Source: Podarcis gaigeae (Eukaryota). Taken from it: 64,000 nt of DNA. Made by a program: the position numbers. The stretch is from assembly GCA_964106915.2 (NCBI GenBank), contig OZ066921.1. One strand, 5' to 3'. Positions within the stretch are counted from its first letter, which is position 1; every line of letters starts with the position of its first letter. Below, one piece after another: positions 28,201-34,200 of this stretch.

Positions 28201-31200
28201 GTGTTTCTCTTGGGTCACCTGTACATCATGGATAGGGCAGCACTGTCCATTGTGTCAGAATTCGGTTTCTGGCCCCCCCATATGAATCTGCATTTCAGGA
28301 AATGCTTCTGTGACAATGAGGAGTCATGCAGCAGGTTATTTTTGCATTAGCACGGTTAAGTCTTCATTTCTAGACTTGCAGCGTTATCAGTGTAGCTCTA
28401 AAGCTGCAAGTTCACCACATGCCAAGCCCTGGGGTGATCTTGAGCAAGATAGTTCGAGTTTTGGGGGTTGTTTTTTTTTTGCTGGAGTTTTCTAGTTTTT
28501 TGTGCCCCCCCCCCCAATTCCATGGACTTGTGGACACCTTCATTTTTCACTTTTAGGCAAATGTCTGCTGAATACCTGTACTTTTTTAGAGAGAGAATTT
28601 GCTTTTATTCATTCTGACTCTTGTGGAGAATCTTTGGGCCTCTTAGACAAGCCTCTTGTTCTGTGTGCTTTGGGTTTGCTTTCTTTGCAGCTTCTAAAAT
28701 AGCCCCCCACCCTTTCTTTCTCTTGCTAGAATGTCATTGATGGGGATCTGTGTGAGCAGTTCAACTCCATGGAGCCCAACAAGCAGAAGAACGTGTCTGA
28801 AGAGCTGGACAGGACCCCACCAGAGGTGTCCAAGAAGCTGGAGGACATCCGCACCCGCTATGCTTTCTGAGAGGCGCCTTTTCAGGGACGTGGCTGGGAT
28901 TCCTGTTCCAAAGATGTTTTGAAGGGTATGAGCTTTTTTGGCCAGTTGCTCCCACTTTGGTACTCTTGTTTTCTTCCAGCGACTTGAAAGTCCAACCATG
29001 TCATCAACCTGTTCTGTCCATGCTGTTCCAGGAGTCAGTCAGGTTCTCCCAAGTGGCGAGGCCTCCCCTTTCAGGTGTGTTTCTGGCTCCACCCTTTTAT
29101 AGACAGTTTGGGTGCTGCACCCACTACCAACCTGCCCTTGGACAAGGCCCTGGTGCCCTTTCCTTGTCAAGTGAGCTAGCTAGATGAAGTCCCCTTTTCT
29201 GAGTTGGTAAGATATAAGCACAGGGACGTTAGGGCTCCTCCTCTTCTTCCATTGGCCAGTGTCTGGGAAGCCTTGTGGGCGTGGCTGGTGTAATTTTTCC
29301 ATCCTGCAGTTTTTATCTCTGTGTTTGTAAATAGAGTCTTGTACCAAGTTAGCCTTTTGTCTGCTGAAGAGATGGCCTGTATGATTCTGGCCATAGATTT
29401 TTCTTTAATAAAACCCAGCATCTGGATTAAAGGTTGGCTGACAAACCTGTTTGGTGACTTCTCTCATGAATTTTACCTGCTCCTGGGGACATGAGCTAGG
29501 GAGGAGCTACCAATGGCACATTAATTTCATGGGAGGATCAATCTTGTCATTCATTTTAAAATGCCACGTTTCCCTGCACTTGCAGTGTCTAGTATTAGGC
29601 TCTGTATTTCTCTAGAGATCTTACTCTCCATTTACTCTGCTGTGGAAGACTTGTTCAGCCCTCTCAGCTGTCCTAAGGATGTTTATACTTGAGTTCTGGA
29701 ATTGTCTCCCAACCTACCCTACCCTACCTACCCCTTCAGATAAGATAACGTTGTTATGTTTACTTTCCTCAAAAGCAAACCTTTTGCACTCCCTCCCTCC
29801 GAGCCATTATTCAGGCTGCATTACATGTGAATGACAGATCTCTTTGTTTCTATGGTGGGCTGACTACTTGTTTTAAATGTAATATAGGGGTTTGATTCAT
29901 ACGAGTCAGCCTGGCCCAATAGTCAGGGATAATGGGAGCTGTTTGCAAATATTTGGAGGGCACAGGTTCCTGACCTCTGGAGGACAGTGCAGATGTCTAT
30001 GGAACTTGTGACTGGCTGCAGCTCCTAAACACAGATACTTGCTTGAAGAGATACAAATGCCCTTCAGATATTATGGGGACCAGATGTTTAGTTCAAAATG
30101 TGCTGGCTGCTGAGAGATCAGTGTCTGGTTTTAATAGTCGTGAGCTCACCTTTAGTTGAGGTCCAGCTAGAAATACAGTGGAACCGGCAGCACTGCCCCT
30201 TGGTGGAATGGGCACTTGCCGGATCAGGCTATAGAGAACTTATGAGCAGTATTTTATTTAAGCCCAAAGCCAGGTGATTTCAGATCTAGAAATTGGGCCA
30301 AGGCTTTCTGGGCCTTTTTCAAAAGTTTCCTGGTGCTTCGGGTTGCTTTTGTTTCAAATGTCTTCACTGAACAATTACTTTAAAGGACTATTTCTCCTTC
30401 CATGTATGGATGTGGGAGTTCTGGATTGGATATCATCCATTTCAGAAGTAGAACTAACTAAGCAAATTCTCTTGTCAGCTGAAAATCTCTCTTTCGGCTA
30501 GGCTCTGACATGCTATGTCAAGCTGCCACACTGGACCTTCTCTGGCTCCAAGAAAAGGAGAGCCCATCCCATCAGAAGGGAGCCAGTAGCCAGTGAGGGA
30601 TTGCGGAAAAGGGAGTAACCTGTGTCTGGTTGGGAAGTCTCTTGCCCTCTTAGACAAGGCCAGAGCGGAGCAGCATGTAGCCTTTGAGGACTGCTGCTGC
30701 CCAGCTGCCTCATTAAGGTTGGGGCTGGTGGAGAGGCCTAACACAGCCCAGCCTTGAAATGGTTCAGTGATTAGGGGTGGGGATTGATGTGAAGGGCAAC
30801 TGTCAGTGACAAAGACCGTGGTAAAGCTTGCTGTGGGGAAGAACTATCTTCTATGCTGCTATAGTGGAAGCTACAGAAATAATACCCCTCAGACTTCACC
30901 CCCGTTACTTCTCCACATACACAAGCAGGCACACTTGGATATTCTATGGGCATGGAAATGCTGGTTTCTTGCTACAAGGTGTTGGAAATATGCAAATGGC
31001 TGTGAGAAGAGCTTTGGGGATTGATGCACTGGCTGGTACTGAAATCAGCAAGGCCCAGCTCCTTTCTCCTAGTCCAGGGGCTGGGGCTTTAGAGCAACAG
31101 CATTAGAAAAAGGCATGCCCCAGAAGGCTAAAAAACAACAACACATGCTTTTTGCTTTCCATGTGAGAAGATACAGAGACACAGCTATTGATTGCTACTT

Positions 31201-34200
31201 CCACTGTTGGAGGCAGTGTGCTTCTGAATACCAGTTGCAGGGAATCACATGAGGAGTTTCTATTGTGCTCTGCCTTTGAGTTTCCTACAGGCATCTGGTT
31301 TGTCTCTGCCAGAGCGGGATGGGTCTTTGCTACAATCCAGCAGGCTCTTATGCTCGTCTGAAATACACCTTAAGACATCTCTCTTAAGAACCCCTACTAG
31401 GCTAGAACTCTAGAAGGTGTTGCTTTGTTTTAAAAAAATACACTTACCTTTCGATTTCTGTAACCATAAATTCAGAATTGGAATGGCTGGGACAAATGTG
31501 TGTTAGCATTTGTGTTGTGATTCCAGTAGGGTTACAGGTAGGAAAACCACCTGTGGATGTTGTGTGCCTGGCCTGAAGAAACAACTGCTTTCTTCCTCTT
31601 ATGCGTAGGAGAGTAAGAATGGGTGGGATGGGGTGGGAGGAACCAATTTGCGTTAATTACAGTACAACTTTTTATTAATACTGGAATCTTCACAGTGCAT
31701 TCGTTACTTGTAGCAGTGACTATTTTAAATGAAGGGAGAGGATAATTAACTTTTAAGAATGAAAGAGGGTGGGTGGGTAAGGCCAGGGCTGCTAGCAAAA
31801 GGGGGGGGGGGTAGGGAAAATAAATTAGAAAAAAAGAACAAGTTAACAGCACCAGAATAGTTAACATCAGTTGAGAGAGACATTTTAAAGGGTTTTTTTC
31901 CTCTGTACAAAAAAATAAAATAAAAATAAAAAGCAAAATGCAAACATTTCTCACGCATTGTCACTGTTGTCATTTCTGGCCATGACAGGGAGGAGGGGGG
32001 CACCCACAGGAAGGTTGGTTGGTTAGAAACTAAACTGTTATTACTACGACAGTATAAGAGTTAAGGAGGCTACAACGTGACACCCACGCAAGCGCACATA
32101 AGACATCTGGGCTGTGGGGAGGGTGGAGGGGACTGCTGTGGCTCTATGTACAACAACGACAACACCAGGCCCTGCTGTGCCTTGCAGGAGCTAAGGATGG
32201 GGAGACGGGGAGGATCCAGCAAGAGGGAGCAGGCGCAGTTGTGCTTTCTCAGAGGCTTCTAGGCACCCCAGCCCTCAAGGGGCCTTGAGTTGGCTGGTTT
32301 GTATTCACCACCGCTGTGCTTTGCTTGTGCCTCACCACACAGCACTCAACGCTGTCCACAGCTGTGCTCTCACTCTACTTTAGAAAGGGTTGTTGACCAC
32401 CATGCTGCTGCTATGAGAAATGTGGTGGCATCTCTCTTGGAATAATTGTCACAAGCCCATCTTTCATTTTTTTCTTTGCATGGGTAAGCTCTGTACTCGA
32501 ATGCCTGGCCAGTTCAAAGACAAAGGAAGCCCCTAATGTCTAGCATGGGCTCTGCCTCCCCCACTTAGCCACCCCATATGTGCTACATCTGTGCTGTTCA
32601 GTGATCCTTGGATACTCAACAATCCCAGGAGAGGAAAGCAAGACATGCTCATTCTTGAGCCCAACAAACACAAAAGGTGGAGGTTATGCATCAGGGGCCG
32701 TTTAATGGACCCTCATTTGTTGAGGAAGCTTGATCTGTAAAGCATGAGACTCTTAACCCAGGGCCAGGCCCCATGTTGGACAAAAGATTTCTGTATTGCA
32801 AAGGGTTGGACTAGATGACCCTCATTGTTCCTTCCAACTCTACAATTCTGATTCCTTCCTAGTCAAAGCACAGGGAAAGGCGTCTCCCTCTTTCCCCCTC
32901 ACGTTAGACCACCTTATTTCCCAGCCACTGACTTTCCCCATCACTTTCTCTTTCTTTCAAGACTCCCCTTTCCCAACATCACTTTCCATTTGCCAACAGA
33001 GCCGATTTCTAGACTTTCTGGGACAATATCAGGGAGAGTACAAGGTAGAAGATCCAAGTCTCTTGCACTCTCCAGATCTGGGTATAAGATTACGTAACTA
33101 ATATAAATAAACTCAATGAATTTATCCAAACCCTTAAGTTGTTTCTGCGGGGCAACTTCTTCTGTTCCAAATTTGGGGAGGCAGGTGGAAGTAAGCAAAA
33201 CAGCTTAAAAAGTTGATAGGCACTATTTGTATTTATGTTCCTTCTGACTACCTGGCTTGCATGCCCTAAATTCCAGCCCTGCTGAACTCTTAACTCCCAT
33301 CAGGCCCAGAAACCGGCTAGCCCATGGTCAGCATTGATGGGAGTCTTAATAACATTGGAAGGTGAAAAGTTATCCATCCCTGGTCTAAAACAGTGAGAAA
33401 TGTGGATATTCTTACAGCAGCTGCATGGCCCAAGCTGGAGCTTCTGGCTGGGAGCTGCAATCCAACTTATGCTCCTTCAGCTCCAAGCACAAAGGAAGAA
33501 GCTGTGCTGAATATTCATTTGGTTATAGATCTGGAGGCCAAAACCAGAACAAGGGAGCTGGTCTGTTTCTGTAAATCCCCTCTGCCCCCATTTTTAAAGC
33601 CTGCTTGTGGCAATTCTTTCCTCACTTTCTGCTGGGACTCTAATTTCATGAGCAGGTCAGGGTGAATCGGGGAATCGTACTATGAATGCAATGTGGTTGA
33701 CCGTATAGCAGATCTGGCTAAGCAGCAGCAACATCGCCAAGAGGGTTGGTTCAGCTATTTCCCTCTCTGCAGATACTTTTAACCCCTTTCAAAGTATCCA
33801 CCCAATATTGACAAAATGGGGTGCCTTTTGATGCTGTTAGAAGAGGCACCCTGCCACACACTCACAGGCTTAGTCATAACCATACCCATACTTGGCCAAA
33901 ACAGGCTCACATTGGAAAAGGCAGAGGACACTGCCCCAGACCCAGCACTCCGCCTAACACTGCTTGGCAGCAGCCTCCCACAACAAAGATCTTTCCTATT
34001 CTTATCTGGAGATGCCAACAGTTGAACCTGGGACCTTCTGCATGCCAAGCAGGTGCTCTACCACTCTGCTACAGCCTTTCCAGTGACACCAGAACCTGTG
34101 AGCATCAGTTTAACAACCTTTGGCCTTGCCAGATGGTTGTAGGAGAATTCAAGAGCAGACACCCTTGGTCTTTGCACACACCCTGCTTTCAAAACCCTCT

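What the first reader, a model, noticed from the sequence alone, without database searches (positions are those of the whole stretch)
29430..31650. IL34 appears missing from its expected position between SF3B3 and MTSS2
Seen: the SF3B3 poly(A) signal (29407) and the probable MTSS2 poly(A) signal (31671) are only about 2.2 kb apart. In that gap I found no exon encoding the conserved IL34 motifs (LQYMKHYFP, LRYLW, HPS, VRPKALLDNC). Known (recalled human gene order): SF3B3(+), IL34(+), MTSS2(-), with IL34 tail-to-tail with MTSS2. Inference: IL34, the second CSF1R ligand that sustains microglia and Langerhans cells in mammals, has been deleted, eroded or relocated in this squamate lineage. If lost, tissue macrophages would depend on CSF1 alone. 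I cannot say whether this is already documented.
Basis: partly seen in the sequence, partly recalled or inferred. Interest (0 to 1): 0.75.

Follow-up and report, generated by a model that had tools for sequence, protein, structure and literature searches.

The report
Known squamate IL34 deletion locus
The macrophage growth-factor gene IL34 really is absent from the short spacer between SF3B3 and MTSS2 in this window, but the loss of IL34 in lizards and snakes by deletion at this spot is already published.

Summary
SF3B3 (+ strand) ends with a stop at 28868 and AATAAA at 29407. MTSS2 (- strand) has its stop at 35366-35368 and AATAAA (read on the - strand) at 31671. The two signals are 2,258 nt apart and the window has no N.

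No trace of IL34 was found:
- Pfam scan of all six frames from the SF3B3 signal to the MTSS2 stop codon: 0 of 6 frames matched IL34, while the 28-residue WH2 motif of MTSS2 was recovered as a control.
- phmmer of the three + frames against PDB, which holds human and mouse IL-34: 0 hits.
- Open reading frames in the spacer are no longer than chance, and CpG observed/expected is 0.15.

The interpretation, IL34 deleted in squamates, is supported. It is not new. Pinheiro et al. 2020 (eLife, PMC7717901) reported IL34 lost in Squamata. Salve, Sonal and Vijay 2026 (BMC Biol, PMC13005343) described a segmental deletion between SF3B3 and MTSS2 across 261 squamate assemblies, with long-read checks and a CSF1R co-evolution analysis.

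No call identified the window's species. Relocation elsewhere in the genome and read-level continuity could not be tested here. Verdict: real, ordinary, already known.

The parts
28730..28870 (+). SF3B3 last coding exon, with stop codon TGA at 28868-28870
   Evidence: translation of 28730-28867 matches residues 1172-1217 of the 1217-residue SF3B3 chain (5o9z_w), E 2.6e-25. TGA at 28868, and an AG acceptor directly upstream of 28730.
28871..29431 (+). SF3B3 3' UTR, with AATAAA at 29407-29412 and ATTAAA at 29426-29431
   Evidence: these are the only canonical + strand signals between 28000 and 31818. Their use is inferred from position, not shown by transcripts.
29413..31670 (.). Intergenic spacer of 2,258 nt, at the position IL34 occupies in other vertebrates
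   Evidence: no IL34 match. GC 0.457, CpG observed/expected 0.15; longest open frames are 93 aa (+) and 122 aa (-), reached by 47% and 17% of 500 simulated sequences; no blastn repeat hit against the rest of the window; no N.
29911..29971 (+). Weak, degenerate copy of an interspersed repeat, inside the spacer
   Evidence: local alignment to the repeat at 9094-9199 scores 22, against a maximum of 20 in 100 simulated spacers. It is marginal, and blastn at E<=1e-3 did not report it.
31671..31676 (-). Probable MTSS2 poly(A) signal (AATAAA on the - strand)
   Evidence: it lies 3,695 nt downstream of the MTSS2 stop. Its use is inferred, not shown.
31677..35365 (-). MTSS2 3' UTR if the 31671 signal is used; an alternative ATTAAA lies at 32701-32706
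   Evidence: there are only two canonical - strand signals between 31000 and 35400; no protein family matches here in any frame; an interspersed repeat lies at 32785-32845; a tRNA-like piece lies at 34007-34078.
35366..36163 (-). MTSS2 last coding exon, given as open-frame limits; stop at 35366-35368; the exon's 5' boundary was not determined
   Evidence: WH2 motif, E 7.9e-6, at residues 235-261 of 265; the same motif was found in the read-through frame; the ORF ends in ...RRTITNDRSAPRFL.

Best explanation
The window shows the SF3B3-MTSS2 junction of a genome in which the whole IL34 gene has been removed by a segmental deletion. SF3B3 (+ strand) and MTSS2 (- strand) now lie tail to tail, with about 2.26 kb of non-coding, CpG-depleted spacer between their poly(A) signals. 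Shown here: both neighbours end intact. No sequence with detectable similarity to IL34 remains between them. The sequence has no assembly gap. Inferred from the literature: this is the state shared by squamates, it arose once in their ancestor after the split from tuatara, and IL34 has not moved elsewhere in the genome. Inferred only: CSF1R signalling in these animals relies on CSF1 as its remaining known ligand.
For: Flank identity, tested one exon ORF at a time: 6 of 7 SF3B3 ORFs hit Beta-prop_RSE1_1st, Beta-prop_RSE1_2nd or CPSF_A, and 3 of 3 MTSS2 ORFs hit IMD. The best PDB matches are SF3B3 at E 3.4e-44 and, for the C-terminal exon, E 2.6e-25. MTSS1 matches at E 2.6e-25, and the last MTSS2 exon carries WH2. 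Geometry: SF3B3 stop at 28868, poly(A) signal at 29407, MTSS2 poly(A) signal at 31671, MTSS2 stop at 35366. Absence of IL34: the Pfam scan at E<=10 gave 0 of 3 + frames (28501-35501) and 0 of 3 - frames (29001-36500) with an IL34 match. The 28-residue WH2 motif was recovered in the same kind of read-through frame at E 8.7e-5. phmmer against PDB at E<=10 gave 0 hits for each of the 3 + frames of 29001-35401. PDB holds human and mouse IL-34 as 4DKD and 4EXP. Those scores were reached by 6, 18 and 4 of 20 shuffles, and none of the best hits lies in the gap. Spacer ORFs are of chance length and CpG observed/expected is 0.15. The window has no N. Literature: IL34 is reported lost in Squamata (PMC7717901). 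Segmental deletion between SF3B3 and MTSS2 is reported from 261 squamate assemblies, with long reads spanning the locus in two species and negative searches of assemblies, reads and RNA-seq (PMC13005343).
Against: No call identified the species of the window. That Pfam-A holds an IL34 family is recalled, not shown by any search. No real IL34 exon was available as a positive control. HMMER's filters drop most matches above E of about 0.1, so a badly eroded single exon could be missed. PDB was searched with the + frames only. Outside 28501-36500, the window was checked only with three short motifs. The rest of the genome, reads and transcripts were not available. The published genome-wide searches were BLASTn, which is weak for a fast-evolving cytokine after about 250-280 million years. 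The papers' supplementary tables could not be seen.
Confidence: 0.9

Rival explanations
1. IL34 still exists in this genome but has moved to another locus. It would be divergent enough to have escaped annotation and nucleotide-level searches.
For: Nothing in the window speaks for it. Only 64 kb could be examined here. The published genome-wide searches used BLASTn (PMC13005343), which has low sensitivity for divergent cytokines. [quoted passage not shown]
Against: PMC13005343 reports no IL34 in 261 assemblies, raw reads or RNA-seq, and rates IL34 its strongest case of loss. PMC7717901 found IL34 absent in the squamates it examined, while orthologues in fish to birds keep about 38-48% similarity to the reference. 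At that level of similarity, protein-based annotation would normally find the gene.
Confidence: 0.04
2. The short spacer is an assembly artefact: IL34 was lost through a collapse or mis-join at 29-32 kb.
For: Read-level continuity could not be checked with these tools.
Against: There is no N in the window. GC content shows no break across the interval (0.43-0.50 per kb over 29001-33000). Both gene ends are intact, each with its own poly(A) signal. The same contracted arrangement is reported across squamate assemblies and is spanned by long reads in Podarcis muralis and Naja naja.
Confidence: 0.03
3. A compact or eroded IL34 remains inside the spacer or the presumed MTSS2 3' UTR but is too divergent to detect.
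For: The search has limited sensitivity for single short exons, and no IL34 positive control was possible.
Against: 0 of 6 frames matched across 29413-35365 and the 3 + frames gave 0 PDB hits. ORF lengths are at chance level: the longest ATG-started ORF is 66 aa, and 80% of simulated sequences reach that. CpG observed/expected of 0.15 gives no sign of a CpG-island promoter.
Confidence: 0.02

Closest known systems
Squamate IL34 loss by segmental deletion between SF3B3 and MTSS2 (Salve, Sonal and Vijay, BMC Biol 2026, PMC13005343; first noted by Pinheiro et al., eLife 2020, PMC7717901)
   Same: The same flanking genes. A contracted SF3B3-MTSS2 distance: the paper's figure shows both gene ends of Podarcis muralis inside a 5-kb view, and here the poly(A) signals are 2.26 kb apart. 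No recoverable IL34 remnant.
   Different: Nothing differs in kind. This window is one more instance, and its species was not determined. This report adds protein-profile searches of the spacer, where the paper describes BLASTn, and gives exact coordinates of the gene ends.
The ancestral vertebrate arrangement COG4-SF3B3-IL34-MTSS2-VAC14 (as described in PMC13005343)
   Same: SF3B3 and MTSS2 are present in the expected convergent orientation.
   Different: IL34 is missing and the intergenic distance is too short to hold it.
'Hidden' GC-rich genes of birds that were wrongly called lost (discussed in PMC13005343)
   Same: A conserved gene that is absent from annotation across a whole clade.
   Different: Here the syntenic site is fully sequenced with no N, has moderate GC (0.457) and is simply empty. 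The paper gives the mean GC of IL34 orthologues as 56.76%, below that of the bird cases.

Membership tests
IL34 (interleukin-34 cytokine gene) | Sequence matching the IL34 protein family or solved IL-34 structures | tested here: not met
   0 of 6 frames matched over 29001-35501 in Pfam at E<=10. 0 of 3 + frames hit PDB at E<=10, and PDB holds 4DKD and 4EXP. That Pfam holds an IL34 model is recalled.
   The best window-wide scores were 28 of 54, 24 of 31 and 30 of 54. These were reached by 6, 18 and 4 of 20 shuffles. None of the best hits lies in the gap.
IL34 (interleukin-34 cytokine gene) | A + strand gene between SF3B3 and MTSS2 with coding capacity | tested here: not met
   The spacer is 2,258 nt. 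The longest + strand open frame is 93 aa, against a simulated mean of 93.7. The longest ATG-started ORF on the + strand is 59 aa.
Published squamate IL34-deletion locus | SF3B3 and MTSS2 are direct, convergent neighbours | tested here: met
Published squamate IL34-deletion locus | A contracted SF3B3-MTSS2 distance relative to non-squamates | tested here: inconclusive
   The distance here is 2.26 kb between poly(A) signals, or 6.5 kb from stop to stop. The paper's tables are in supplements that could not be seen.
Published squamate IL34-deletion locus | Assembly continuity across the locus | tested here: inconclusive
   The window has no N. Spanning reads are not testable with these tools.
Published squamate IL34-deletion locus | The genome is that of a squamate | not testable with these tools
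No vertebrate genome collection was open.
SF3B3 | RSE1/DDB1/CPSF1 beta-propellers plus the CPSF_A region, closest to SF3B3 rather than DDB1 | tested here: met
   6 of 7 exon ORFs matched. SF3B3 at E 3.4e-44 against DDB1 at 2e-4; the C-terminal 46 residues match.
MTSS2 (MTSS1L) | An N-terminal IMD and a C-terminal WH2 | tested here: met
   IMD in 3 of 3 ORFs. WH2.
MTSS2 (MTSS1L) | It is the MTSS2 paralogue rather than MTSS1 | tested here: inconclusive
   PDB holds only MTSS1. The MTSS2 name rests on its position next to SF3B3, as in PMC13005343.

The most novel reading that the evidence does not exclude
The 2.26-kb spacer may not be wholly neutral filler. It could keep unrecognised relics of IL34 or its regulatory DNA, which would allow the deletion breakpoints to be mapped; the 2026 paper says it could not do this. 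Alternatively, squamates may keep a CSF1R ligand so divergent that neither BLASTn nor the searches here could see it.
Probability: 0.03. Interest if true: 0.5.

Novelty: already known. Interest (0 to 1): 0.12.

Why it matters
In mammals IL34 is the CSF1R ligand that maintains microglia and Langerhans cells. A whole reptile order without it is a natural knock-out, useful for asking how tissue macrophages are sustained and how a receptor evolves after losing one of its two ligands. That question has already been raised and partly analysed in print, as relaxed and positive selection on squamate CSF1R in PMC13005343. This window therefore adds only an independent confirmation at one locus, made with protein-level searches.

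Tried and rejected
I repeated it on the same tool with stops read as X.
2. I looked for repeats that would explain the spacer. blastn against the rest of the window gave 0 hits at E<=1e-3. Only one marginal SINE-like piece turned up, at 29911-29971. I had guessed by eye at a second repeat near 31190-31350, but no call supported it, so I dropped it.
3. Rfam over 28000-36500 found nothing in the spacer. The only hit was a sub-threshold tRNA-like match at 34007-34078, and ARAGORN found no tRNA in the window.
4. A full six-frame Pfam scan of all 64 kb was not run, because it would have taken more searches than the cap allows. Outside 28501-36500 only the motif scan was done.
5. The - strand frames were not searched against PDB.
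Each exon ORF was searched on its own and the joined step was left out.
The only open genome collection holds bacteria and archaea, so it was not used. As a result, no sauropsid IL34 sequence could be obtained as a query or positive control.
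Full report
**Observation**

The window is 64,000 nt with no N.

On the + strand, a series of open frames from about 1.9 kb to 28.9 kb encode pieces of SF3B3.
- Searched one exon ORF at a time, 6 of 7 hit the RSE1/DDB1/CPSF1 first or second beta-propeller or the CPSF_A region. The ORF at 21655-21924 gave no hit.
- The exon at 24369-24665 matches PDB SF3B3 chains at E 3.4e-44, against 2e-4 for DDB1.
- The last exon, 28730-28867, matches residues 1172-1217 of the 1217-residue chain 5o9z_w at E 2.6e-25.
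- It is followed by TGA at 28868.
- The first canonical poly(A) signals after that stop are AATAAA at 29407 and ATTAAA at 29426.

On the - strand, 3 of 3 tested ORFs carry IMD.
- One matches MTSS1 (2d1l) at E 2.6e-25.
- The 265-aa open frame at 35366-36163 ends in a WH2 motif at E 7.9e-6.
- Its stop is at 35366-35368.
- Between 31000 and 35400, the only canonical - strand signals are AATAAA at 31671 and ATTAAA at 32701.

The two signals are separated by 2,258 nt, 29413-31670. The poly(A) sites themselves are inferred from sequence, since no transcript data were available. The name MTSS2, rather than MTSS1, rests on its position beside SF3B3. Each exon was searched on its own and the joined step was left out.

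**Is IL34 there?**

The MTSS2 3' UTR assignment is only an inference, so I searched the largest space that could hold a gene: from the SF3B3 signal to the MTSS2 stop codon, 5,953 nt.
- Frames were read through with X at each stop and scanned against Pfam-A at E<=10. The three + frames of 28501-35501 gave 0 families.
- The three - frames of 29001-36500 gave only WH2 at E 8.7e-5 and a chance-level Agd3_C at E 9.4.
- The WH2 hit is a useful control. It shows that a 28-residue motif embedded in a 2,499-residue read-through frame is recovered.
- phmmer of the three + frames of 29001-35401 against all PDB chains at E<=10 gave 0 hits each. PDB holds human and mouse IL-34 bound to CSF-1R, as 4DKD and 4EXP (passages of PMC3500696).
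The best scores were 28 of 54, 24 of 31 and 30 of 54, reached by 6, 18 and 4 of 20 block-shuffles. None of the best hits lies in the gap.

Limits of these searches:
- That Pfam holds an IL34 model is recalled, not shown by a call.
- No genuine IL34 exon was available as a positive control.
- HMMER's filters lose most matches above E of about 0.1.
- The - frames were not sent to PDB.
- Outside 28501-36500 only the motif scan was run.

**What the spacer is**

- GC is 0.457 and CpG observed/expected is 0.15, which gives no sign of a CpG-island promoter.
- The longest stop-to-stop frames are 93 aa (+) and 122 aa (-). These lengths were reached by 47% and 17% of 500 first-order Markov simulations. 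The longest ATG-started ORF is 66 aa, reached by 80% of simulations.
- blastn of the spacer against the rest of the window gave 0 hits at E<=1e-3.
- A marginal, degenerate copy of the interspersed repeat at 9094-9199 aligns to 29911-29971, scoring 22 against a simulated maximum of 20.
- Rfam found nothing in the spacer.

It reads as ordinary, old, non-coding intergenic DNA.

**Explanation**

The simplest account is that the whole IL34 gene was removed by a deletion whose ends lie between the two poly(A) sites. Both neighbours were left intact and tail to tail.
- Shown here: the geometry, the intact gene ends, the absence of detectable IL34 sequence and the absence of an assembly gap.
- Taken from the literature: that this is a clade-wide squamate state, and that IL34 has not moved elsewhere.
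- Inference only: that CSF1 now carries CSF1R signalling alone.

**Rivals**

- A relocated, divergent IL34 (about 0.04) cannot be tested from 64 kb. It is disfavoured by the published negative searches, although those used BLASTn.
- An assembly collapse (about 0.03) is disfavoured because the window has no N, composition is smooth across the interval, and the same arrangement is reported in other assemblies with spanning long reads.
- A hidden or eroded IL34 within the spacer (about 0.02) is disfavoured by the six-frame searches and the chance-level ORFs.

**What is known**

Three literature searches bear on the loss: IL34 + squamate; IL34 + lizard + gene loss; IL-34 + squamat. They return the same two works on this point.
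- Pinheiro et al., eLife 2020 (PMC7717901). I read passages. Its preprint was seen only in a search listing. [quoted passage not shown]
- Salve, Sonal and Vijay, BMC Biol 2026 (PMC13005343). I read the outline, abstract and passages. Its preprint was seen only in a listing. It analysed 261 squamate assemblies.
  - It describes COG4-SF3B3 to the left of IL34 and MTSS2-VAC14 to the right.
  - It reports significant contraction of the SF3B3-MTSS2 distance in squamates.
  - Phylogenetic logistic regression supports a segmental deletion.
  - Long reads span the locus in Podarcis muralis (a 5-kb view holding both gene ends) and in Naja naja.
  - BLASTn of assemblies and raw reads was negative, and transcription was lacking.
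  - There is further rearrangement in some vipers, and relaxed or positive selection on CSF1R.
  - It calls IL34 its strongest case of loss.
  - It notes that deletion boundaries could not be delimited, because the nearest outgroup, tuatara, diverged about 250 million years ago.

They may hold the very locus seen here.

**Verdict**

Interest is low. The only addition here is a protein-profile check of the spacer and exact coordinates for the gene ends.

Noticed in passing
window 462-1238: Tandem array of 5 copies of a 154-nt unit, 64-99% identical to the reference copy. It reads as repeated open frames on the + strand and lies upstream of the first SF3B3 exon seen in the window.
   Followed up: no
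window 9094-9199, 48813-48948, 23930-23970, 43633-43673: Copies of one interspersed repeat. 9094-9199 and 48843-48948 are 96% alike, and 48813-48870 and 48891-48948 form an inverted pair 20 nt apart. From recall only, the core resembles SINEs common in lizard genomes; no tool tested this.
   Followed up: partly
window 13715-14059 and 60677-61015: A second interspersed element of about 340 nt, present in inverted orientation in an SF3B3 intron and an MTSS2 intron, 77-88% complementary in four blocks.
   Followed up: no
window 32785-32845; also 19663-19730, 43382-43446, 10577-10630: A third repeat family, with one copy inside the presumed MTSS2 3' UTR between the two candidate poly(A) signals.
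   Followed up: no
window 34007-34078 (-): tRNA-like match at 26.6 bits, below Rfam's gathering score of 29 (E 0.037). ARAGORN calls no tRNA. It is probably the head of a tRNA-derived SINE in the MTSS2 3' UTR.
   Followed up: partly
window 27379-27684 (+): Reverse-transcriptase fragment (RVT_1, E 1.3e-6, profile positions 3-54 of 205). It is a truncated retroelement piece about 1 kb upstream of the last SF3B3 exon.
   Followed up: partly
window 278-390 and 39737-39847: Long purine-rich GA microsatellites. The second lies in an MTSS2 intron with a high AT skew (39001-40000).
   Followed up: no
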